Shown: in pieces, positions 6,860 through 64,000 of the stretch
Numbering within the stretch: position 1 is the first letter of the stretch
How the letters are laid out: each line of letters starts with the position of its first letter
Assembly: GCF_963921235.1 (NCBI RefSeq)
Contig: NC_086097.1
Coordinates: 132,310,001 to 132,374,000 of the forward strand
DNA length: 64,000 nt
From: Mobula hypostoma
Lineage: Eukaryota
Reading direction: 5' to 3'
Translations under genes and position numbers: made by a program
The notes under the pieces: model-generated
Database searches by the model: none
What the model was told of the DNA's origin: nothing
The model's input: the letters and a program-made list of their open reading frames with translations, nothing else

Positions 6860-8847
6860 CAATAGAAAGAAATAAGGAATAAGTGGAATGGCCATTGTGT
6901 GAGTGGGCCAGTGTTAGAGTGGTCAAGCCTTGGCTCAAAAGGCATACCGAGCCGTGATACATCTGAATCGGACGCTTTCTATGGTGCATTTATAACAATT
7001 GGTGAGTGTCAAAGCCGAGAACAGGTGGAGACAAAGGGTGCTTCTGAGTCACTTGGTATCATTTATTTTTGATTATAGACTTGGGCTTGAGAAGTTGGAG
7101 CCAAAGCTGAGTAGGTGATCTAGGTGTATGCGAAAATCTGTGGTTTCAGAGAAAAGGCAGAGGTAAGCTTTTTTTGTTGTCTGTAAGACCTCAGTCTTTA
7201 ATTCCATGTCAGCAGGATGGTAGTTAGAGCATTAGAGTACTCCTCCTGTAATATGGGATTTCAGGGTGTCTAACAGTCTCCACGACGACTATATCTGTGG
7301 GAAGTGCAGCCGACTTCAATTCTTGGCTGATAAAGTCAAAGGGTTCAAGCATTCATTTTATTGTCAAAGTATGCATGTACACTACAATTCTGATTATTTG
7401 TCTACTCCAGATAGCTATTAAATACAGAAAGACATCAACCACCCACCCCCCAGCATGTAAAAGAAAAGAAACAAAACTTGCAGACCCCAAAAATCACTCC
7501 TCCCCCACAGCAAAAATAACAGTGAGAATAGCAGTCTGCAGGAAAAAAATGGTGACAACAACAGGAGCTGGTGCTAGATGTACTAAGGACCAAACCCGAA
7601 TGCTGAAAACCTCCAAGATGAATCCTTTACTGAGGTGGTCACCCAAAGAGTGTAGTCTTCAGATAGTAGGTGAGTGACCACTGGGGGAAGTAAGGGGAGC
7701 AAGCAGTCATTGCAGGGTTGCCCTGTGGCCATTCCTCTCAGCAACAAGTATACACCTTTGAAAACTGCTGATGGGGGTGTGGGGGGGTGTGGGGTCTGTG
7801 GATGCCCTATCAGGGCACTGTAGCAGCAGCCAGGCCAGTGGCACTGTGGCTGGCTCTGAGGTTCAGAAAGGAAGTGTAAAGTCAAAGATTGTGAAAGGAG
7901 GTTTGATCGTTAAGGGACTGGACAGGAGATTCAGTGGCTGTGACATAGAAGCCCAGATGGTGTGTTGTCTCCAAAGTGCTAGGGTCAAGGATGTCTCAGA
8001 TTGGCTGCAAAATATTCTCAAGAGGGAGGCCGAGCAGACTGGTGTCGTGGTGCACTTTGGCACCAATGACATTGGTAGAACGGGGAAGAGGTCCTGTGCA
8101 GTGAGTATAGGGAGTTGGGTAAGATTCTGAAGAGCAAACTTCTGGGTTACTCCTGGTGCTACGTGTTAGTCAGGACAGGAGTAGAATGATAGTACAGATG
8201 AATGTGTAGCTGAAGAAATGGTGCAGGGGGCAGGGCTTCCGTCTCTTGAATCATTGGGACCTCTTCTAGTGTAGGGGTGACTGGTACAAGAGGCACGGCT
8301 TGCACCTAAACCGGAGGGGAATCAATATCCTGGCTGAAAGGTTTGCTAGTGCTACCCAGGAGGGTTTAAACTAGTTTGGCAGGAGGATGGGAATCAGAGC
8401 TCCAGGTCAGAAAGGACGGCGGGGAAGGACCAGTAAAAAACAGGCAGGAGCAAAGTAATAGATATCATAGGATGGATAGTTTGAAGTGTGAGTATTGTAA
8501 TGCTAGGAGTATTATTGGTAAAGATGGTGAACTTAGAGCCTGGATCAGTACATGGAACTATGACGTTGTGGCCATTACAGAGAGCTGGTTAAGAGAAGGA
8601 CAGGAATGAATGCTTAATATCCCAAGGTTTTGATGTTTCAGAAAGGATGGAGAGGGAGTTAAAGGGGGAGTGAAGCTGCACTAATAATCAGGGACAATAT
8701 CCCAGCTGCACTCAGAGGGGACATAATGGAGCCACTGAGCACCCACCGAGTCTATATGGGTTGAGCTCAAAGATGGGAATACTGCAATCACTCTGATGGA
8801 ATTCTACTATAGACACCCCAATAGCCATCGGGCCATTGAGCAACAGA
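6860..8847 (+). mobile_element. CR1 5' part: UTR, ORF1 (Zn finger + esterase), start of ORF2 endonuclease
   Basis: ICGKC; VCCL.SARVKDVSD; VVVHFGTNDIGR; CNARSI...YDVVAITESWL. Contains small insertions at ~6952-7014 and ~7340-7520. Confidence 0.85.
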
Positions 8848-9365
8848 GCAACCCACACAAAATGCTGGAGGAACTCAGCAGGTCAGGCAGCATTGATGGA
8901 AAAGAGTAAACTGTTGACATTTCAGGCCGAGATCCACCTTCAGGACTGAGAAGGACGGTGGAAGGTGCCAGAATAAAAAGCTTGGGGGAAGGAAAAAGAG
9001 GCTAGCTGGAAGGTGATAGGCGGGAAGGGTCAAGGGCTGGACGAGACAGAATCAAATAGGAGAGGGGAGTGGATCAAAGGAGAAAGGGAAAGAGGTGGGA
9101 ATCCAGGTGGAAGTAGTAGGCAGGTGAGAAGAAGTGAAAGGTTGGATTGGGGAATGGGGGGTGGAGTGGAATTTGGGATTTGTTTACCAGAAGGGGAATT
9201 CCATATTCAGGTTGGAGGGAACCCAGATGGAATTTAAGGTGTTGCTCCTCCACATTGAGGGTGGCTCATTTTGGCACGAGGAGGCCATGGATTGGCGAAT
9301 GGGAATCGGAACTAAAATGTTTGGCCACCAGGAAGTTCTGTTAGTGGTGGATGGTGCAAAAGTGC
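8848..9365 (-). mobile_element. PLE fragment: pLTR and GIY-YIG C-terminus
   Basis: acacaaaatgctggaggaactcagc pLTR; minus-strand translation EEQHLKFHLGSLQP at ~9205-9255. Confidence 0.75.
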
Positions 9366-11178: not shown

Positions 11179-11608
11179 CACAAACACAAGAAAGTCTGCA
11201 GATGCTGGAAATCCAAAGCAACACATACAAAATGCTGGAGGAACTCAGCCGATCAGGTAGCATCTAAGGAAAAGAGTAAACTGACAATGTTTTGGGCCGA
11301 GACCCTTCCTCAGACTTCTTGTGATAAGAGTCCCTCTTGTCCTTAGCTTCTAACCCACCAACTCTTCATCCAACACATTACCCTCTGCAACTTCCACCAT
11401 CTCTTTGTGATTTCCTTGCCCATTTGTCCCTCCCCACTAATCTCCCGCCTGGCTCTTACCCCTGCAAGCAGCATAAGTACTACAAAAGCCATACTCCTCC
11501 CCCCTCACCTCCATTCAGAGCCCCAACTAGTCATTCCAGGTTAGGCAACACTTCACATGCAAATGTGCTGGGGTTGTCTATTGAGTCCACTGCTCCTGAC
11601 ATGGCTTC
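11179..11608. mobile_element. PLE: tailed pLTR (minus, to ~11315) plus ORF fragment (plus)
   Basis: aaacacaagaaagtctgcagatgctgg tail; plus-strand RVPLVL, GSYPCK and SFQVRQHFTC..GVVY (GIY-YIG-type region). Confidence 0.75.
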
Positions 11609-12945
11609 TTGGTGGTAGAGAAGTTACTGGAGAGAATTATTTGGGATAAGAATGATGAATATTTGGAAAACCATGGCCCAATTAAGGAGAGCCAGCATGG
11701 CTTTGTGTGGGACAAACTGTGTCTTACTAACTTGATTAATTTTTTTGACCAAGTGACAAGGGTGGTTGATGAATTTAGAGCTGTGGATGTCATCTACATG
11801 GATTCTAGTAAGGCATTTGACAAGATCCCTCATGGGAGGCTCATGTAGAAGATTAAGATGTATGGGATCCATGAAGAATTGACTGTTTGGATTCAGAACT
11901 GGCTTGCTCATGGAAGACAGAGGGTAGTTTTTGAAGGGGCTTATTTTAGATGGATGTCTGTGATTAGTGGTGTTCTGCAGGGATCTGGGCTGGGACCTCT
12001 GCTGTTTGTAATGTATATAAATCAGTTGGATGAAAATGCAGATGGGTGGATTAGTAAGTTTGCAGATTGGTGGTGTTGCGGATAGCATAGAAGACTGGCT
12101 AAGAATACAGCAGGATATAGATCATTTGCAGATATGGGCAGAGAAATGGCAGATGCCAGCTAAGTGTGAAGCGTTACCACTTGGTAGGTCAAATGTAAAG
12201 AGACAGTGTGCTGTTTAGGATAAGACCATTAACGGTGTTGGTGAGCAGAGGGACCTTGGGATCCAAGTGCATAGTTCCCTGAAAGTGGCTACATAGGTTG
12301 ATAGCGTGGTTAAGAAGGCATATGGTAAGTTTGCCTTTATCAGTCTAGGCACTGAGTTCAAACGTAAGTTATGTTACAACTTTATAAAGTTCCATGTAGG
12401 CCGTATCTGGAGCATTACATACATTTCAGGTTGCCCCACTTAGAAGAAGGATGTTGAAGCTTTTGAGAGGAGGCAGAAGAGGTTTACCTGGATTAAAGGG
12501 CATGTGTTATAATGAGAGGCTGGACAAACTTGTGTTTTCTTCTCCAGAATGGCAGAGGCTGAAGGGAGATCTAGTAGGAGCTTATAAAATTATGAGAGGC
12601 ATTGAGAGAGTAGACAGACAGTATCACTTTTTTGCAGGGTTGAAATGTCCAATAGCAGAGGGCATGCATTTAACGTGAGAGGGGGCAACCTCAAAGGAGA
12701 TGGGAAGGGCAAGTGTTTTTTCTTACACAGAAAGTGGTGGGTGCCTGGAATTCATTTCCTGGAATGGTGTTAGAAGAACATTTAGAGACATTTAAATAGA
12801 CACATGAATGTGAGGAAAATGGAAGGATATGGACCTTAGGGATTAGTTAAGTTGCCCAGTTGATGACTAATTTAATTGGATTGGCACAACATTGTGAGCT
12901 GAAGGGTCTGTTTCTGTGCTGTACTGCTTTCCTATGTTCTAAAAC
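11609..12945 (+). mobile_element. CR1 RT domain and 3' UTR
   Basis: VVEKLLE, SQHGF, CLTNL, DVIYMD.SKAFDKIPH, GPLLFVMYIN, SKFAD; tatgttct tail. Confidence 0.9.
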
Positions 12946-37754: not shown

Positions 37755-38280
37755 GTCAGTACAGAATAAGCCTCAAGGCACAGGTGGCCAGCTCTGGATG
37801 CCCCAGTTACCCTTATTTTTCCCATATCTAGCTAAACTTTTCCTATCCCTTTGTTTATCCAAATGGCTGTTAAATATTATTACTATATCCACCTCAGCTA
37901 CTTTCTCTAGCAGCTCAATCCATACTTGCACCATCATTTGTGTGAGTAAATTAAAAACATTCAGGTGCCTTTTAAATCTTTCCCTTAATACCTTAAACCT
38001 TAGCTCTCTAGTTTTTGCAAACACAAGAAAATCTCCGGATGCTGGAAATTCAAGCAGCACACACAAAATGCTGGTGGAATGCAGCAGGCCAGGCGTAGTC
38101 CTGTAGATACTGCCTGACCTGCTGTGTTCCACCGGCATTTTGTGTGTGCTGCTCTCTAGTTTTTGGTTCCCTTTTCCTGTGGAAAAGACTGTGTGGAGTT
38201 ACCCTATCTGTGCCCCTCATGATTTTAGACACCTCTTTAAGGCCACCCTCAGGACCTTGTATTCTAAGACATAAAGTCTA
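37755..38280 (-). mobile_element. CR1 3' fragment
   Basis: KIMRGTDRV...KTRE and LRFKVL.ERFK on the minus strand, split by a PLE hairpin. Confidence 0.8.
38018..38150 (-). mobile_element. Fold-back PLE mini-insertion
   Basis: Inverted arms ~38056-38092 and ~38111-38152; 15-bp TSD gctctctagtttttg at 38003-38017 and 38151-38165. Confidence 0.85.
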
Positions 38281-39255: not shown

Positions 39256-40447
39256 GCTGCTGGAGGAACATAAAAATGAATTATCAATGTTTTAGATTAA
39301 GACCTTGTACCATGTCTGGACAAAATGATCAAGAACATGTCTTCCTAAACCTGGGTCTGAACACCTCCTATTTTATGCAGGATTTCTCAAGCAATCCTAA
39401 TCCAAGGCCTGAGCATCTCTCCAGATCTCATTACTGTACCATCATCCTCCAATCACAGGCGGTGTACTCCAGTCATATTGGGCAGGCAGGTACTCCTGGA
39501 CTGACTACTTGTCAAAAAGGGCTTCTCTGTAATTCCTCTTCATCACCCTCCATTTTGACCACGCACACTTTGGAAGTGGTGGCAAAGTGGCACTGGGTAG
39601 ATCAATTCAAAGTGTTCTTCAATAGGCTGGTGAATAATTCATTCTGCTCAGGACTGATTAATAACCTGATGGCTGGTTAAATATTCTGGGCCTTTGACTG
39701 CAAGCGAACATCATTTACATGCTGCAAATTATTGAACCAATATTGATGCATTTTACATCAAAGGAAATCTTCCAAAGCCAGCATTGAAAGTTTATAATTG
39801 CTTGCAGAAAAGTATTTCCTCATGGTATAAAGCTGAAAATTAGTAACTGTTTTGCCATTTTAAGTTTAAGTAACATTACTATTTATTTATGATTAGCCTA
39901 CGGCCATGAATAGGTGCTTCCTGTAGGTTGCACCATAACACATGCATGTGTTCCCCAAATTTCTGCATGTTGCTGCCTGCTGTCTAACAAGAGACTCTTT
40001 GGATCTTAACACAAGTGACTTGTTACATTCAGTGTGTCTTACAAATGAACATACAACTAAGGAGGTCTAGCCACTCAGCTCTTCAAGCTGACTCCGCATT
40101 TAATACATTCATGGTTTTAACCTTAACTCTGTATTCATTTCTAACTTCTTGCTTATTAGAATGTATCTACATCTGCCTCAAATCTATCTTACCTCTATTT
40201 CTCGACCCTAAAAAATATTCAAAGGTACTGTTGCCATCACCTTTTGAGGAGAAGAATTCAACTGCCGTTCTTGCCATAACCTCAACACCTCAGGATCAAG
40301 GGTTTAGTCCTGACCTCTGGTGCTCTTTGTATAGAGTCTGCACATTCTCCGGAAATACTCAGCCATAATCTACTGTTGTCCAAGCCAAGCACTGTTTGGT
40401 TGAACTGTATGAATGACAAAGCACAACTGGGACGTCTGAGTAAAAGC

Positions 40448-40639
40448 AACACACATCAAAGTTGCTGGTGAACGCAGCAGGCCAGGCAGCATCTCTAGGA
40501 AGAGATACAGTCGACGTTTCGGGCCGAGACAAAGGGTCTCGGCCCGAAACGTCGACTGTACCTCTTCCTACTGCGTTCACCAGCAACTTTGATGTGTGTT
40601 GCCTGAATTTCCAGCATCTGCAGAATTCCTCGTGTTTAG
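40448..40639 (+). mobile_element. Fold-back PLE mini-insertion
   Basis: Near-perfect hairpin centred at ~40533; 14-bp TSD gtctgagtaaaagc at 40434-40447 and 40640-40653. Confidence 0.9.
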
Positions 40640-40699
40640 GTCTGAGTAAAAGCTTACATACTACAAATTCTGCTACAAACTGAGAAATGGCGACATCGA

Positions 40700-40935: not shown

Positions 40936-41135
40936 GCAAGGTTTTACATCTTGGGCTGAAAGGAGAGGAATAAGTTCCGATGCCCTCTGATAAGATGACA
41001 CAATGAGTTGAAACACCATCTCTAACTCATTTTCTATTGTTATCTGAAGACATACCTTTCTAATGAAACACAGAAACTGTAACTCTGTCTACAGTTCCTG
41101 CTACCTCAGGAAAGCAGCCATCAAAGATCCCCTCC

Positions 41136-42325
41136 ATAAGACTATAAGACATAGGAGCAGAATTAGGCCATCTGGCCCAACGAGTCTGCTCTGCCATTCA
41201 ATCATGGCTGATCCTTTTTTTTTATCTCCTCCTAACCCCAGTTCCCAGCCTTCTCATAACTTTTGATGCCATGTCCAATCAAGAACCTATCAATTTCTGC
41301 TTTAAATACACCCAACGACCTGGCCTTCACAGCTGCATGTGGCAACAAATTCACCACTCTTTGGCTAAAGAAATTTCTCTGCATCTCTGTTTTGAAAGGG
41401 CGTCCCTCTATCCTGAGGTTATGCCCTCTTGTCCTGGACTCTCCCACCATGGGAAACATAGAAACATAGAAACATAGAAAATAGGTGCAGGAGTAGGCCA
41501 TTCGGCCCTTCGAGCCTGCACCACCATTTATTATGATCATGGCTGATCATCCAACTCAGAACCCCGCCCCAGCCTTCCCTCCATACCACCTGACCCCCGT
41601 AGCCACAAGGGCCATATCTAACTCCCTCTTAAATATAGCCAATGAACTGGCGTCAACTGTTTCCTGTGGCAGAGAATTCCACAGATTCACCACTCTCTGT
41701 GTGAAGAAGTTTTTCCTAATCTCGGTCCTAAAAGGCTTCCCCTTTATCCTCAAACTGTGACCCCTTGTTCTGGACTTCCCCAACATCGGGAACAATCTTC
41801 CTGCATCTAGCCTGTCCAATCCCTTTAGGATTTTATACGTTTCAATCAAATCCCCCCTCAATCTTCTAAATTCCAACGAGTACAAGCCCAGTTCATCCAG
41901 TCTTTCTTCATATGAAAGTTCTGCCATCCCAGAAATCAATCTGGTGAACCTTCTTTGTACTCCCTCTATGGCAAGGATGTCTTTCCTCAGATTAGGGGAC
42001 CAAAACTGCACACAATACTCCATCTTTTCCACATCTGTCTAGGCCTTTCAACATTTGAAAGGTTTCAATGATCCTCCCCTCATCTTTCTGAATTCCAGCA
42101 AGTACAGACCCAGAGCTAACAAACGTTCCTTGTATGATAACCCTTTCATTCCTGGAATTATCTTTGTGAACCTCCTCTGCACCCTCTCCAATGTCAGCAC
42201 ATCTTTTCTAATATGAGGGGCCCAAAACTGTTCACAATACTCAAGGTGAGGTCTCACCAGTGCCTTATAAAGCCTTAGCATCACATCCTTGTTGTTGTGT
42301 TCTAGACCTCTTGAAATGAATGATA
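41136..42325 (-). mobile_element. CR1 3' fragment with a younger CR1 nested at 41456-42020
   Basis: Outer element: RPHLEYCEQFWAP and GESRTRGHNL. Inner element: EYCVQFWSP...FTQRVVNLWNSLP with a (ctatgttt)n tail. Confidence 0.9.
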
Positions 42326-44387
42326 AGTGATGTGCTACAGAGACATAAACTTTTGTTTACAGTTTATACAAGCCACTTGAATGCAAAAGTACAGTTTTAA
42401 ATTTGCTGATGATACAAAGATAGGTGGGAAAGGAAGGTGTGAGAAGGACATAAGCAGGTTACAAAGCTACATAGATCCATAGCTGATGAATTTTCAATTT
42501 TGATGAGAACAATAAAAATGAAGCATATTATTCCAGTGATGACAGACAGTTGAAATCTGCAAAGCAACCAGTTCTGCTGTCCAAGTACTGTATATGTGTA
42601 GATAATTTTGCAGGCTAACAGAATGTTATTGTTTATTGTTAGGTGAATTGAATACATAACTAGGGAAGTTATACTTCACCTATACAAGACATTGGTGAGG
42701 CCAAATGTATACAGTTCAGGTCTCCTTCATTAAGGATGTTAATACATGGAAGAGGGGGTTTCAAAAACTCATGTGAGATGATTAAATGGAGACCACAAAG
42801 GGCAGCAGAGAGGAAGGTGATAAGTGGAAACAGGTATTGATAGGACAGTGGGGCTAGGAATAGGGGACATTGATTGTGTGTGGGGGTGCAGGGAGAGTGA
42901 TAGGGAGAGAGGACCAAGGTGGAGGCAGGTTAAGTGACAAGCAACATAGAACTGGGTGAGTTGGGAGAAGGATCACTGTGATAGAGCAGAAGTTACAAAG
43001 ATTTGAGAGCAAGTACCTTCTATCCTACTGTTATAAGACTCTCAAATGACCCCTTGTTTGATAAAGATAAAGCCTGAATTTCCCAATTTACATCATTGTG
43101 GTCTTGCAATTTATCAGCTTATGCACACTGCACATTCTTTGGAGCTGTAACAGTACATTCTGCATTCTGGGGTTTTTTTGCCCCATTGCACTACCTCAAT
43201 GTTCTTTATGTATGGAATGATCTGTCTTGATGGCAAAAGATTTTCAATTTATCTTGGTACATGTGACAATAATAAGCATATTACCAATTTTGTATTTTTA
43301 TGAGACTCTGGCCATTTTAGCACAAGGAGGAGGGCGTATAGAAAGATAGAAGTCCAGCTACGGGGTATGTTCAGGAGTACTACCTTCACTGCATGTCTCC
43401 CTATTTTTAAGCTTCATAATTGCTCCCTATGCAATTCAGAGAAGCTTCACTTGGTTGATTCCTGGGATGGAGGTGCTGACTTATGAAGAACGGTTGAAAA
43501 CGTTGGACTAATACTTCTTGGAAATAAGAATGAAAGGTGATCATATTGATTCTGAGTGGGGTTCATGGGCAATTGCTGAGATGATTTTTCTCCCTGAGGG
43601 GAACACAGAATTGGCAGGCATTCGTTGAGAATAATGTGCTGCCCACTTAAAGGAGCAGAAAAGAGGGATTTATTTTCCCTGAAGATTGTGAAGCTTTGGA
43701 ATTCTGCACTTCCAGAGAATTAGGAGGATGATTCATGAAATATATTGAGGGCAGAGATTCACATTCTTGAACCTTAGGGAGGTGAAAGGTTAAGAGGCAC
43801 AGGAAAGAGGAACTGAGGCTAATTATCAGAGGAACCATGGCCTGGTTAAATGGAAGACCAAGCTTGTGAGACTAGGAAACATTAAGTGATGTAAATTAAT
43901 GGAATATCAACTGGCACCAGTGTTGGCCTTATCTTTTACAAACACTTATTTCACACAACAAAACGATCTGAAGGTAGCTGGGAAACATGTACAACACTAT
44001 TTAACAATTGAGATTCTTGTGTGGGAGAACTTACTCTTCTCCCACATTGGTTGCTCTCAGATCTCTGGCAGCCAGTAGCTATCATGCTATTAAACTACAT
44101 GAGGAACCAATCACATTGAAGAATTGGCACAAGTAGCGCAGTAAGAAGTGACACTTAATTAATTTATTAAATATATTGTAAAATGCTATTAGAACATTCA
44201 TGTGCCATTCATGTAGAAGAGAATATATTAATAAAAACTAGCCTCCGTTGATGTTAAAATTCATTGTGGCTTGCAGAAAATGGAGACCATTTACTTGTGT
44301 CAACATTAAATGCTTTTTACTGTTAGATAATTATGCAATAATTCTGGCTGAAAACAGCAATAACTATCACTTAGATCTCATGTAATT

Positions 44388-44475
44388 GAGGGTTTCGGCC
44401 CAAAACGTCGACTAAACTTTTTTTTCCACAAATGCTGCCTGATCCGTTGAGTTCCTCCAGCATTTTGTATGTGAT
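44388..44475 (+). mobile_element. Older PLE pLTR, target of a younger insertion
   Basis: agggtttcggcccaaaacgtcgact...gagttcctccagcattttgt. Confidence 0.7.
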
Positions 44476-44541
44476 CAAGCAACACACATCAAAGTTACTG
44501 GTGAACGCAGCAGGCCAGGCAGCATCTCTAGAAAGCGGTAC

Positions 44542-44577
44542 AGTCGACGTTTCAGGCCGAGACCCTTCGTCAGGACT
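44542..44577 (-). ncRNA. Minimal hammerhead ribozyme motif
   Basis: agtc-CTGACGA-agggtctcggcct-GAAAC-GTC-gact on the minus strand. Confidence 0.8.
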
Positions 44578-45259
44578 AACTGAAGGAAGAGCTAGTAAGA
44601 GATTTGAAAGTGGGAGGGGGGAGGAGGAGATCCAAAAAAATCGGAGAAGACAGGAGGGGGAGGGTTGGAGCCAAGAATTGGACAGGTGATTGGCAAAAGG
44701 GATATGAGAGGATCATGGGACAGGAGGCCCAGGGAGAAGGAAAAAGGGGAGGGGGGAAAACCCAGAGAATGGGCAAGGGGTATAGTCAGAGGGACAGAGG
44801 GAGAAAAAGGAGAGAGAGAGGAAGAATGTGTGTATATAAATAATGGATGGGGTACGAGGGGGAGGTGGGGCATTAGCGGAAGTTAGAGAAGTCGATGTTC
44901 ATGCCATCAGGTTGGAGGCTACCCAGACGGAATATAAGATGTTGTTCCTCCAACCGCCCAGACGGAATGTGTTGTGCCTCCAACCCCATCTGTTACTTTT
45001 ATACACACATTCTTTCTCTCACTCTCCTTTTTCTCCCTCTGTCCCTCTGACTATACCCCTTGCCCATCCTCTGGGTTTTTCCCCTGCTCCCCCTTTTCCT
45101 TCTCCCTGGGCCTCCTGTCCCATGATCCTCTCATATCCCTTTTGCCTATCACCTGTCCAGCTCTTGGCTCCATCCCTCCCCCTCCTGTCTTCTCCTATCA
45201 TTTTGGATCTCCCCCTCCCCCTCCAACTTTCAAACCTCTTACTAACTCTTCCTTCAGTT

Positions 45260-45295
45260 AGTCCTGACGAAGGGTCTCGGCCTGAAACGTTGACT
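45260..45295 (+). ncRNA. Minimal hammerhead ribozyme motif
   Basis: agtc-CTGACGA-agggtctcggcct-GAAAC-GTT-gact. Confidence 0.75.
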
Positions 45296-46159
45296 GTACC
45301 TCTTCCTAGAGATGCTGCGTTCACCAGCAACTTTGATGTGTGTTGCTTGAATTTCCAGCATCTGCAGAATTCCTTGTGTTTTTGTATGTGATACCAATTT
45401 TCAGTGGATGTTACCACAAAACTAGCTTGCAAGTGGGTGAAGTTAAGGCCAGGCTTATAGTTGTGCTGGAGGTGGCTGCAAGTGGTACATCTTGACTCAC
45501 TGACATCAGTTTTTGGGTTTTATTCAACAATGCTTCAGTGCATGAAGTAATGGCAGCATTTTTCCACAACCACCACAAAATTCAGCAATAGTTTTAATTC
45601 CTAACCTCTCAAATCATTGGTCTCCTTTTACCTTCCCTCAATGGTCTTGGCAAAGAGGGTTTTATTTTATCAATGGCATCTTGAGTCAAGACTTAAGTCC
45701 AGCTTCCCAATCTGGAACAAATGCCTTCATTTATTTCTTGCAATTACTTCTCAAAATTTAATCCTACCATGATCAAACAGCAAAATGCACACAATTCAAA
45801 TGTGTGTTCAGTTGATTTACCTGGCCAAGTTTAGAAGGCTTTTGGGAGGGGTTGCCTCCAGGGGTTCCTCTGAGTTAAAGGTGCCAGTGTTGGCATACCC
45901 TATTACAGGCACAGAGGGGCATTCTATCCTGTGGTCTTTGGAGTTTCTACATGTTTCCCATAACTCAAGATGAAAGGATAGTAATGTCTCTCAGCATTGC
46001 CTGATTATTCAAGCAAATGCATCAAATATTTTAAGAGCAGAAAAAAAGAATTTTTTTAAAAAATGGGGATAACTAACCAGTGTTTTGAAAAAACGCTAAT
46101 TAGTCACAGTTGGTTGAGAAATATTTGAAAGGGGAAATCTGACCACTGGGAATTGCATG

Positions 46160-50270: not shown

Positions 50271-51429
50271 TATTCCTGGCCGAAGGCTGAGACAAAAGAT
50301 AGGAGAAGCTTGCAAGAGTTAGTTCTGGGGTATGATGGTGGCATTCTTGGTAAAAGTGTTGAGAAGAGAGACATCATTGATTTTTAAGGTGCATTCACTG
50401 GACAACTGCTCCTATTGCACATTATGAGATGACTCCAGTCCCTATGAGTCAATCTCCTTATGCCACAATGGGCAATACAGTGTCAGCTTCTCATACCAGC
50501 TTCCAGAGGTCACATGATAAATGGTTGAAGATCTGGTAACAGAAGTAATGATTGTCAGCTTTGAAAGTCAGATTATCAGGGACAGCTATTGTGTGAATGG
50601 CTACCAGGGAACTAGTTAGCCTGTGAACACCATCAGACTCCTGGAAAAATTATGGATGACAACTTAACACCACTTCTTGCAAAGATCCATCACTGCTTGG
50701 GCAAATATATTTTATAAAAGGATTAGCCATCATTCAGTGAACATCAGAACTGAGTAAATATGTAATGATAAAATGAAATTTCCATGTCAAAATAATAATT
50801 GAAGGGATTCTACTGAATCTAATATCAGCAGACAGGCTTTCTGTAATCTTGTGCAGCATTTGGCCATTGTCCTGATCTACAAGGATGATCCTGAATTAGC
50901 ATGGCATACAAATCAGCTTTTGGATCTTTATAAGATTATCTATATTATGGGCTAATGCTGATATCTTCTCCAACAAACTACAACATGTTTCAGGATCAAA
51001 TTTTCAATATGAAACACACAGCTTAAATGTGATGTCAAAGATTATTGTTAAAACAAGCAATTTAGATCAACAAGAGGCTTCAGAAAATGGTTTCAAAACC
51101 TTCCATTAGCAAACTTTCAATTGTTTTTAAAGACTACCCCCATCCTTTCTCACTAGGTGTTAGAGTAATAAGCCTTATGATGATTTACTCTCAGTACTTG
51201 ACCTGGGTCAGGTTTACATAATGTATCAGCTTCATTACGTGAGACTCTTAATAGACTATTACTTATTACTATACACAATTTATATTCTAGATTATACTCT
51301 GGGGAACCTGGCTTCTTTAAGCATAGGATTCCTTACTCAATTTAGACTTAGCTCAGCATGAAATGAAGTAGAGGAGACAAACAATAGCAAGAAATGAACT
51401 GTTGGAGGACCTCAGTGGGGGACCCCAGA

Positions 51430-51660
51430 GCAAACAAAAACTGAATCGCTGGAGAAACTCATGTGGAGAGAATTGGACAGTTGACATTTTGGCTCAAGGC
51501 TCTTCATCTGGTCTCCCTTAATTTGGAGTCCAGACGAAGGAGTTCAGCCAAAAATGTTTACCATCCATTCCCCTCCACGGATGCTGCCAGGCCTGCTGAA
51601 TTTCTCCAGCAGCTCATTCTTCATTCCAGAATCCGGCATCTACAGTCTCTGCTATCTCCA
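51430..51660 (+). mobile_element. Older fold-back PLE pLTR pair
   Basis: cttcatctggtctcc-ttaattt-ggagtccagacgaag inverted junction. Confidence 0.6.
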
Positions 51661-61221: not shown

Positions 61222-64000
61222 TTATAAGAAATAATGTGGATGAGCTTGAGGCTCAGTTGGAAACTAGCAAGTATGATGTGGGAATAACAGAGACATGGCT
61301 GCAAGAGGACCAGGGCTGGGAAATTAATATTCAGGGGATATATCCTATCGAAAGGACAGACAGTTGGCTGAAGGGGTGGGGTGGCTCTGTTGGTGAGGAA
61401 TGAAATTCAGTCACTTGCGAGAGGAGACATAGAATCAGGAGATGTAGAGTCAGTATGGATAGAACTGAGAAACTGTAAGGGCAAAAAGACCCTGATGGGA
61501 GTTATCTACAGGCCCCCAAACAGTAGCCTGGATATAGGGTGCAAGTTAAATCAAGAGTTAAAATTGGCATGTTGCAAGGGTAATACTACGGTTGTTATAG
61601 GGGATTTCAACATGCAGGTAGACTGGGAAAATCTGGTTGGTACTGGACCCCAAGAAAGGGAGTTTGTGGAATGCCTCAGAGATCGATTCTTAGAGCAGCT
61701 TGTATTAGAGCCTACCAGGGAGAAGGCAATCCTGGATTTAGTGTTGTGTAATGAGCCAGATTTGATAAGGAGACTCGAGGTGAAGGAGCCATTAGGAGAT
61801 AGTGACCACAATATGATAAATTTTAATCTACAATTTGAGAGGGAGAAGGGAAAATCAGAAGTGTCAGTATTACAGTTGAAAAAAGGGGACTATGGACCCA
61901 TGAGGTAGGAGCTGGCCAATGTTGACTGGGAAGATACCCTAGCAAGGATGACAGTGGAACAACAATGGCAGGTATTTCTGGGAATAATACAGAAGGTGCA
62001 GGAGCAGTTCATTCCAAAGAGGAAGAAAGATTCTAAGGGGAATAAGGGGCGACCGTGGATGACAAGGGAAGTCAAGGACAGTATAAAAATAAAAGAGAGG
62101 AAGTATAACATAGCAAGGATGAGCGGGAAGCCTGAGGATTGGGAGACTTTTAAGGAGCAACAGAAGATAACTGGAAAGGCAATACGGGGGGGAAAGATGA
62201 GGTACGAAGGTAAGCTAGCCATGAATATAAAGGAGGATAGTAAAAGCTTCTTTAGGTATGTGAAGAGGAAAAAATTAGTTAAGACCAAAGTTGGGCCCTT
62301 GAGGACAGAAACGGGTGAAATTATTATGGGGAACAAGGAAATGGCAGACGAGCTGAACAGGTACTTTGGATCTGTCTTCACTAGGGAAGACACAAACAAT
62401 CTTGCAGATATAATAGTGGCCAGAGGACCTAGGGTAACGGAGGAACTGAAGGAAATTCGCATTAGGTGGAAAATGGTGTTGGGCAAACTGATGGACCTGA
62501 AGGCTGATAAATCCCCAGAGCCTGATGGTCTGCATTCCAGGGTACTTAAGGAGGTGGCTCTAGAAATCGTGGATGCATTGGTAATCATTTTCCAATGTTC
62601 TATAGATTCAAGATCAGTTCCTGCGGATTGGAGGGTAGGCTAATGTTATCCCAATTTTTAAGAAAGGAGGGAGAGAGAAAACAGGCGATGATAGACCAGT
62701 TAGTCTGATATCAGTGGTGGGGAAGATGCTGGAGTCAATTATAAAGGATGAAATAGCAGCATCTTTGGATAGTAGTAACAGGATCGGTCCGAGTCAGCAT
62801 GGATTTACGAAGGGGAAATCATGCTTGACTAACCTTCTGGAATTTTTTGAGGATGTAACTATGAGAATGGACATGGGAAAGCCAGTGGATGTAGTGTACC
62901 TGGACTTTCAGAAAGCCTTTGATAAGGTCCCACATAGGAGGTTAGCGGGCAAAATTAGAGCACATGGTATTGGGGGTAGGGTACTGACATGGATAGAAAA
63001 GTGGTTGGAGAACAGGAAACAAAGAGTAGGGATTAACGGGTCCCTTTCAGAATGGCAGGCAGTGACTAGTGGTGTACCGCAAGGCTTGGTGCTGGGAGTG
63101 CAGTTATTTATAATATATATTAATGATTTAGATGAAGGGATTAAAAGTAACATTAGCAAATTTGCAGATGACACAAAGCTGGGTGACTGTGAAATGTGAG
63201 GAGGACGTTATGAGAATGCAGGGTGACTTAGACAGGTTGGGTGAGTGGGCAGATGCAGTTTAATGTGGATAAATGTGAGGTTATCCACTTTGGTGGCAAA
63301 AACAGGAAGGCAGATTACTATCTGAATGGTGTCAAGTTAGGAAAAGGGGAAGTAGAACGAGATCTGGGTGTCCTTGTTCATCAGTCACTGAGAGGAAGCA
63401 TACAGGTACAGCAGGCAGTGAAGAAAGCTAATGGCATGTTGGCCTTCTTAACAAGGGGAGTTGAGTATAGGAGCAAAGAGGTCCTTCTGCAGTTGTACAA
63501 GGCCCTGGTGAGACTCCACCTGGAGTATTGTGTGCAGTTTTGATCTCCAAATTTGAGGAAGGACATTCTTGCTATGGAGGGAGTGCAGCATAGATTCACT
63601 GAGTTAGTTCCAGGGATGGTGGGAATGTCATATGTTGAAAGATTGGAGTAACCGGGCTTGTATAAACTGGAATTTAGAAGGATGAGAGGGGATCTGATTG
63701 AAACATATAAGATTATTAAAGGATTAGACACGCTAGAGGCAGGAAACATGTTCCTGATGTTGGGGGAGTTCAGAACCAGAGACTACAGTTTAAGAATAAG
63801 GGATGGACCATTTAGAATGGAGTTGAGGAAAAACTTTTTCACACAGAGGGTTGTGGATCTGTGGATGCTCTGCCTCAGAAGGCAGTGGAGGCCAATTCTC
63901 TGGATTCTTTCAAGAAAGAGTTAGATAGAGCTCTTAAAAATAGCAGAGTCAATGGATACGGGGAGAAGGCAGGAACAGGGTACTGATTGTGGGTGATCAG
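61222..64000 (+). mobile_element. CR1 ORF2, nearly complete (EN + RT), disrupted
   Basis: [66 protein letters not shown]; several stops and frameshifts. Confidence 0.95.

What the first reader, a model, noticed from the sequence alone, without database searches (positions are those of the whole stretch)
44463..45392. TSD-flanked PLE fold-back unit with two intact, divergent hammerhead ribozymes
Seen: a 904-bp insert with near-identical inverted arms and a 13-bp TSD. Each arm carries CUGACGA...GAAAC-GUH with a 4-bp stem I and a palindromic ACGU in place of helix III. Known: PLE pLTRs carry minimal hammerheads that are thought to cleave as dimers. Inference: this is a young copy in which transcription of either strand gives one ribozyme inside a long dsRNA hairpin. 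It could cut or silence a host intron transcript.
Basis: partly seen in the sequence, partly recalled or inferred. Interest (0 to 1): 0.7.

Follow-up and report, generated by a model that had tools for sequence, protein, structure and literature searches.

The report
Ordinary two-armed Penelope retroelement insertion
This 904-base hairpin-shaped insert is a dead, moderately old copy of a very abundant Penelope-like jumping gene of rays, whose normal way of inserting leaves two head-to-head copies, and its two small self-cutting RNA motifs are predicted to be locked inside the hairpin, not active.

Summary
The anatomy is real: a 904-bp insert, exact 13-bp TSD and a minimal hammerhead core on each outward-facing arm. 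The interpretation mostly fails. The arms are 93% identical (26 of 372 positions differ, 3 indels), unequal (480 vs 394 bp), and only one has the 29-nt tail. One arm ends in the last 27 codons of a GIY-YIG ORF matching ray Neptune-type PLE proteins. The insertion appears shared with a relative about 2% diverged and absent from one about 5% diverged, so it is not young. Two more TSD-flanked fold-backs of the same build lie within 7 kb; one has a contig-bridged empty site. On either strand the antisense arm is transcribed first and the hammerhead is fully paired; forcing its stems costs 72-74 kcal/mol. Both motifs lack the conserved G10.1-C11.1 pair, and one has GUU. No host gene or RNA holder was found. 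Most likely: both target strands primed reverse transcription, and the two cDNAs were joined by microhomology. Inverted pLTRs with a tail and TSD are published, and this scan noted such fold-backs elsewhere in this genome. One small lead: all three tail-bearing arms are interrupted in the same 20-nt segment.

The parts
44463..44475 (+). Target-site duplication, left copy (13 bp); it forms the end of the recognisable part of an older pLTR relic
44476..44955 (-). Left arm: 5'-truncated PLE copy (ORF end plus pLTR), without tail; ends at the proximal end site of the family
   Evidence: relatives continue past 44955 with other letters (loose end in 3 of 4 runs among the rows shown)
44541..44577 (-). 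Minimal type I hammerhead motif, GUC triplet (position 17 at 44546), G-U at 10.1-11.1
44873..44956 (-). [quoted passage not shown]
44956..44985 (+). Central junction: re-copy of 44922-44955 with a net 5-nt loss and one mismatch, ending in microhomology to the start of the right arm (2 exact letters; 7 of 9 over a longer stretch)
44986..45379 (+). Right arm: 5'-truncated pLTR copy with a 12-nt deletion near 45312 and the tail
45260..45296 (+). Minimal type I hammerhead motif, GUU triplet (position 17 at 45291; a CpG-type change from GUC), G-U at 10.1-11.1
45351..45379 (+). One-sided 29-nt tail; predicted to pair with the segment just 3' of the hammerhead
45380..45392 (+). Target-site duplication, right copy; organism C's contig begins to align exactly here
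44380..44475 (+). Older, decayed pLTR relic of the same superfamily into which the unit inserted
   Evidence: (I5, I6)
40434..40653 (.). Sister fold-back of the same subfamily, 14-bp TSD, tail on the right arm, 18-nt deletion in the tail arm; empty site in organism C
38003..38165 (.). Third fold-back, 15-bp TSD, same short-end and tail-end sites, opposite orientation

Best explanation
A passive fossil of one insertion by a very abundant Neptune-type Penelope-like element in a ray-like genome. SHOWN: two 5'-truncated copies head to head inside one TSD, one ending at a proximal site and one about 30 nt further (tail); ORF end of a GIY-YIG PLE; the same build in three insertions; an empty site for one sister copy. 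INFERRED (about 65% within this reading): the endonuclease nicked both strands 13 nt apart, each 3' end primed reverse transcription on element RNA, one at each of the two start sites, and the two short cDNAs met and were joined by slippage and microhomology. The two hammerheads are just the pLTR's usual passenger copied twice. PREDICTED, not measured: in any read-through RNA the ribozyme is sequestered by its antisense arm, so the unit does not cut host RNA.
For: ORF tail: 10 of 23 candidates pass E<=0.01. The two best are ray proteins, 89% and 93% identical over the matched part. P0002 shows YIDD, a CKRNKCYTC linker and GVIYC...YIGET, and has a weak Pfam GIY-YIG hit (20.9 bits, below the 22.6 cut-off). 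Three TSD-flanked fold-backs (TSD 13, 14, 15) share both end sites within about 6 nt and show short TSD overlaps at their outer ends: 1, 4 and 3 letters at the short ends. Organism C joins 40433 to 40640 in one contig, skipping exactly insert plus one TSD (206). Depth over the element is 1.6-2.9 million against 11-24 in unique flank bins of run X1, and listed joints such as 44562-45263 and 44576-45262 fit head-to-head junctions at other loci. Folding. Literature: inverted 5'-truncated copy plus one-sided 30-40 bp tail is typical (PMC8557442); inverted pLTRs with 9-10 bp TSD and 31-bp tail (PMC3846280); a purified PLE protein nicks and extends both strands and starts at two sites bounding the tail, and hammerhead mutants do not affect insertion (PMC11167929); dual minimal hammerheads 100-700 bp apart on opposite strands were already seen (PMC4209133).
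Against: Double priming is inferred from three insertions; the in vitro data come from a Poseidon-clade element, and that paper does not model fold-backs in the two parts I read. PMC3846280 prefers self-priming for inverted structures. The Pfam GIY-YIG hits are all below the cut-off, and the clade call rests on a linker motif in relatives' proteins, not on a tree. Organism B's junction has only 23 element-side letters, below the tool's 31-letter bridging rule, and organism C's empty site at this locus is read from one contig end. Folding energies are equilibrium models without protein; the Anolis hammerhead needed the element protein to cleave. Arm divergence (7.0%) sits at the upper edge of what the age bracket predicts.
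Confidence: 0.85

Rival explanations
1. Same element, different route: the inverted arm arose by self-priming (snap-back) synthesis on a template, and the hairpin product was then integrated.
For: Proposed for rotifer PLEs on the basis of palindromes at the inverted junction (PMC3846280). The 40.4-kb sister has a nearly perfect hairpin centre.
Against: This unit's centre is not a palindrome: the arms start about 100 nt apart in the element and are joined by a tandem re-copy plus microhomology. The tail-less end falls at the same site in three insertions and overlaps its TSD, as expected if the target primed it.
Confidence: 0.2
2. One reading: the unit is a functional device that cuts a host transcript through its hammerhead.
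For: Both cores keep all consensus letters, whereas only 3 of 15 pLTR-end pieces examined in the window do (several of these are truncated before the core). An active dimer can be drawn (-12.1 and -12.7 kcal/mol).
Against: The drawn dimer is 17-20 kcal/mol above the dimer MFE and above two folded monomers. In the full insert the motif is wholly duplexed. Even a transcript starting inside the right arm gives stem probabilities of 0.006 or less. PLE minimal hammerheads showed no monomer and low dimer activity (PMC4209133), 1 of 9 Xenopus retrozyme dimers cleaved (bioRxiv 10.64898/2026.07.22.740005), and no RNA-seq ends were found at the Anolis cut site. The intact cores are explained by moderate age.
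Confidence: 0.04
3. The unit matters as a dsRNA source: if it lies in a transcribed region, the 370-bp hairpin is edited or diced, like inverted Alu pairs (analogy recalled).
For: Very stable hairpin on both strands, with 5-6 uninterrupted helices of 19 bp or more.
Against: Transcription of the locus and a host gene are not shown. The effect would be generic to a very large family, and nothing singles out this copy.
Confidence: 0.15
4. A MITE or foldback DNA transposon whose arms are terminal inverted repeats, or an assembly artefact.
For: Long inverted arms within a TSD look like this at first sight.
Against: The ends are unequal (tail on one side), TSD length varies 13-15, insert length varies from about 130 to 904 bp, and one arm holds a retroelement ORF end. 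The arms differ at 26 sites, which a mirrored read would not.
Confidence: 0.03

Closest known systems
EN+ PLE insertions with an inverted 5'-truncated copy, one-sided tail and TSD (Arkhipova 2013, PMC3846280; Craig 2021, PMC8557442; passages read)
   Same: Head-to-head pLTRs, one TSD round the whole unit, tail on one arm only, 5' truncation, microhomology junction.
   Different: Here both copies are short, so no ORF lies between them. TSD is 13-15 bp against 8-10 bp in the rotifer examples, and the centre is a tandem re-copy, not a palindrome.
Minimal hammerheads of metazoan PLEs (Cervera and De la Pena 2014, PMC4209133; parts 1-2 of 4 read)
   Same: [quoted passage not shown]
   Different: Helix II is about 4 bp (7-8 bp in the Schistosoma families), and G10.1 faces U, not C. 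The right motif has GUU.
PAc, Poseidon element of Anolis (Frangieh 2024, PMC11167929; parts 1-2 of 4 read)
   Same: Two end sites bounding the tail, downstream of the hammerhead in a predicted stem-loop; AT-rich target; insertion into its own pLTR as one option.
   Different: PAc is Poseidon clade; this family has the Neptune-type linker. PAc was tested biochemically; this one was not.
Twin-primed L1 insertions (model recalled, not read here)
   Same: Two primers from opposite strands, inversion, microhomology junction, one TSD.
   Different: In L1 the two parts come from different segments of one RNA. Here both arms copy the same segment, which needs two RNAs, two tandem units or re-use of one template.
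Non-LTR retrozymes (bioRxiv 10.64898/2026.07.22.740005; part 1 of 5 and passages read)
   Same: PLE pLTR-derived, type I hammerhead.
   Different: Retrozymes are head-to-tail tandem units; this is head to head, so the two motifs are never on one strand.

Membership tests
EN+ Penelope-like element | Parent ORF with RT and C-terminal GIY-YIG endonuclease | tested here: met
   Only 27 codons are in the insert; they match the C-termini of P0001 and P0002, which carry YIDD/YIDK and GIY-YIG motifs. Pfam GIY-YIG hits in 5 of 9 homologues, all below the cut-off.
EN+ Penelope-like element | pLTR in tandem or inverted arrangement, 5'-truncated | tested here: met
EN+ Penelope-like element | One-sided tail of about 30-40 bp | tested here: met
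   29 nt (31 with the TSD overlap); same in 3 of 3 TSD-flanked fold-backs
EN+ Penelope-like element | Target-site duplication verified by an empty site | tested here: inconclusive
   Met for the 40.4-kb sister (bridging contig). For this unit only one organism-C contig end, aligning from 45380 with 17 unaligned letters before it; the empty-site and filled-site letters there agree at only 2 of 17.
Neptune clade | Cys-rich CX2-5CxxC linker between RT and EN | tested here: met
   CKRNKCYTC in P0001 and P0002; criterion from PMC8557442. Seen in relatives, not in the insert.
Neptune clade | RT phylogeny | not tested
   No RT sequence in the insert; no tree built.
Minimal type I hammerhead of PLEs | Core C3-A9, G12-A15.1, U16.1-H17, helix I of 4-5 bp, palindromic 15.2-16.2 | tested here: met
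Minimal type I hammerhead of PLEs | G10.1-C11.1 pair | tested here: not met
   G-U in both arms; stem II -2.3 against -3.9 kcal/mol for the sister copy with C. PMC4209133 lists this pair as highly conserved but outside its descriptor, so this weakens the motif and does not remove it from the family.
Active hammerhead ribozyme | Self-cleavage at position 17 | not testable with these tools
   Folding predicts sequestration; contigs cannot show RNA ends.
Non-LTR retrozyme | Head-to-tail tandem units each with a hammerhead | tested here: not met
   Head-to-head layout; no tandem array at the locus.
MITE / foldback DNA transposon | Matching terminal inverted repeats, fixed TSD length, uniform copies | tested here: not met

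The most novel reading that the evidence does not exclude
These abundant fold-backs are direct fossils of two-ended integration in which a dimeric PLE protein reverse-transcribes two separate RNA templates, one from each start site, and they carry a reproducible footprint: the arm begun at the distal (tail) site is interrupted in the segment that pairs with the tail (12-nt deletion, 18-nt deletion and 5' junction in 3 of 3 tail arms; 0 of 3 short arms). Arm differences at the top of the age bracket would then partly predate insertion. The boldest extension (about 5%) is that the palindromic hammerhead dimer is what holds the two templates together; against it, hammerhead mutants insert normally in vitro, and hammerhead-less Naiads make the same inverted structures. 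With on the order of 1e5 relatives, a ray genome would make this testable by counting.
Probability: 0.25. Interest if true: 0.5.

Novelty: new member of a known kind. Interest (0 to 1): 0.15.

Why it matters
As a single locus it matters little: it is one of three such units in 7 kb and fits published PLE insertion anatomy. The family as a whole is a large natural data set for an open question, namely how PLEs make inverted pLTRs and tails, since the authors of PMC11167929 say the later steps are still unvalidated.

Tried and rejected
No whole genome is held, so no direct genome-wide count. Rfam: no hammerhead match; the miRNA/snoRNA hits at the centre only reflect the hairpin. Pattern scans found 0 loci in metagenome, genome and viral contigs, so no further family copies were available to test the two-template idea. 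Pfam on the 27-residue fragment: 0 families. ESM Atlas: best 0.79, uninformative. Homologue search with the decayed 9.2-kb relic: no candidate. No RNA holder listed; run X14 is only guessed to be RNA and covers 22 of 30 bins, which is no evidence on expression. Host gene: no host exon recognised by eye among stop-free frames of 70 or more residues outside repeats or among 15 strict splice-flanked candidates; these were not scanned against Pfam, so intronic status is open. Two-template test: 26 of 372 is not significantly above the 5.0% upper bracket (p=0.06; 20 of 352 after dropping the 20 junction-proximal columns, p=0.32) nor above the sister's 1 of 65 (p=0.16). One dinucleotide difference (CA vs TG) is explained by opposite decay of a single CpG (my inference). 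The bacterial promoter scan is irrelevant here. Lunse 2017 is not held; I saw only its citation and a review's summary (PMC6765202). One search fetched an unrelated paper. I found no passage quantifying GUU against GUC; that GUU is weaker is recalled, and one search lists GUU among cleavable triplets. Searches showed no title on double priming in PLEs, and none on ray PLE fold-backs; I saw listings only, and most subscription papers are missing, so this is not a claim of absence. No supplements were read; those of PMC4209133 and PMC11167929 could hold shark or ray examples.

Full report
1. Observation. The insert runs 44476-45379 (904 bp) between two exact 13-bp repeats; a match that long occurred in 1 of 5000 random window pairs. 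The arms align over 372 positions with 26 substitutions and 3 indels, 93.0% identity. They are unequal: left 480 bp, right 394 bp, and only the right arm carries a 29-nt 3' extension. Each arm has the minimal hammerhead core with a 4-bp stem I and ACGU at helix III; the motif has 5 matches in the window against none in 100 shuffles. Rfam finds no hammerhead. Both motifs have U at 11.1, where the 40.4-kb sister has C, and the right one has GUU by a CpG-type change.

2. Identity. The left arm, read on the minus strand, begins with 27 codons and a stop. A homologue search gave 10 hits among 23 candidates; the best are ray proteins (Hypanus, Mobula). These carry an RT motif, a CKRNKCYTC linker and GIY-YIG motifs, with weak Pfam GIY-YIG matches in 5 of 9 scanned. 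By the linker criterion quoted in PMC8557442 (passages) this is Neptune-type; I built no tree. The host is therefore probably a ray (inference).

3. Surroundings. A profile of the pLTR end finds 20 hits in the window, covering 3.5% of it. Two more TSD-flanked fold-backs lie at 40434-40653 (TSD 14) and 38003-38165 (TSD 15), and an older one without a clear TSD at 51429-51650. In all three TSD-flanked units the short arm ends within about 6 nt of the same site and the other arm carries the tail; the short ends overlap their TSDs by 1, 4 and 3 letters. The focal unit sits at the end of an older pLTR relic, which fits the statement that PLEs tend to insert into or next to earlier copies (PMC6765202, passages); one case could be chance.

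4. Age and abundance (4 of the 24 listed runs laid, contigs only, tables truncated). In run X1, depth over the element is 1.6-2.9 million against 11-24 in unique flank bins; the tool warns that this is no copy number, so I take only the order, about 1e5 relatives. Organism B differs at 112 of 5788 letters (1.9%) and organism C at 252 of 5006 (5.0%). B has a contig aligned from its first letter at 45357, through 23 tail letters, TSD and flank, as organism A does from 45356; an empty site would match only 4 of those 23. This is below the tool's 31-letter bridging rule, so it is probable, not proven. C's contig aligns from exactly 45380, with 17 unaligned letters before it, as an empty site predicts. 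For the 40.4-kb sister, C has one contig joining 40433 to 40640, a clean empty site. The insertion thus most likely predates the A-B split and postdates the A-C split. Arms identical at birth should then differ by 1.9-5.0%; the observed 7.0% (95% interval 4.6-10.1%) rejects the low end (p=3e-8) but not the high end (p=0.06). It is not a young copy.

5. How it arose. The centre (44956-44985) is a re-copy of the last 34 nt of the left arm with a small loss, ending in microhomology to the start of the right arm. On each strand the arm next to the TSD is antisense to the element, as cDNA primed from that strand would be. PMC11167929 (parts 1-2 of 4) shows that a PLE protein nicks and extends both strands, starts at two sites that bound the tail, and is predicted to be a dimer. 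I infer double target priming with a microhomology join. The rival is self-priming, proposed in PMC3846280 (passages) from junction palindromes; this unit has none, though the 40.4-kb sister has a hairpin-like centre.

6. What the ribozymes can do. The motifs face outward, so on either strand the antisense arm is transcribed first. The full insert folds at -719 (+) and -730 (-) kcal/mol with the motif wholly paired; forcing stems I and II costs 73.9 and 71.7 kcal/mol. This holds from the moment the motif has emerged. Isolated monomers give stem I probabilities of 0.02-0.04, and the drawn active dimer lies 17-20 kcal/mol above the dimer MFE; such models ignore tertiary contacts and protein. Published activity is nil for monomers and low for dimers (PMC4209133, parts 1-2 of 4), and needs protein for the Anolis element, where mutants still insert and no RNA ends map to the cut site. 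Cutting of a host RNA is therefore unlikely. A passive dsRNA effect is possible if the locus is transcribed; I found no host exon, and no RNA holder was listed, which decides nothing.

7. Comparison and novelty. An inverted truncated copy, a one-sided tail, a TSD round inverted pLTRs, and dual hammerheads on opposite strands 100-700 bp apart are all in print. Earlier notes of this scan describe the same kind elsewhere in this genome; these are unchecked and not counted as support. My reading was stated before I saw them. The unit works like a twin-primed insertion and is a member of the EN+ PLEs; it is not a retrozyme or a MITE.

8. Loose end. All three tail-bearing arms are interrupted in the same segment just 3' of the hammerhead (12-nt deletion, 18-nt deletion, 5' junction), the three short arms are not, and four older solo tail-bearing copies have no such gap, one of them showing a 4-nt gap just upstream. 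That segment is predicted to pair with the tail, but it is also rich in short direct repeats, so ordinary slippage could explain it. Three cases do not settle this.

9. Verdict. Real, ordinary, moderately old PLE fold-back with predicted-silent ribozymes. Interest 0.15.

Noticed in passing
window 45312, 40570, 38095: The tail-bearing arm of all three TSD-flanked fold-backs is interrupted in the same ~20-nt segment predicted to pair with the tail; the short arms are intact there.
   Followed up: partly
window 40434-40653: Short fold-back with 14-bp TSD; contigs of organism B extend into both junctions, and organism C has a contig-bridged empty site; arms differ at 1 of 65 positions.
   Followed up: yes
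window 51429-51650: Older, decayed head-to-head pLTR pair with no clear TSD.
   Followed up: partly
window 11184-11671: A minus-strand pLTR end next to a plus-strand relic of the PLE linker and GIY-YIG region: possibly another head-to-head unit, cut by a later insertion.
   Followed up: no
window 8845-9364: Decayed minus-strand PLE copy with the endonuclease C-terminus (stops, deletion) and a whole pLTR.
   Followed up: partly
window 44380-44475: The focal unit inserted at the short-end site of an older pLTR relic, hinting at self-targeting; such relics cover 3.5% of the window.
   Followed up: partly
window 61372-63199: Long open frames that read as endonuclease and RT of a CR1-like LINE (label from recall, no library scan); related fragments occur across the window.
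   Followed up: no
window 41134-42330: A second very high-depth repeat family with sharp ends at 41134-41136 in the laid runs.
   Followed up: no
P0003: A skate protein named neuromedin-U receptor 1 matches the PLE ORF end: probably a gene model that took in a PLE fragment.
   Followed up: no
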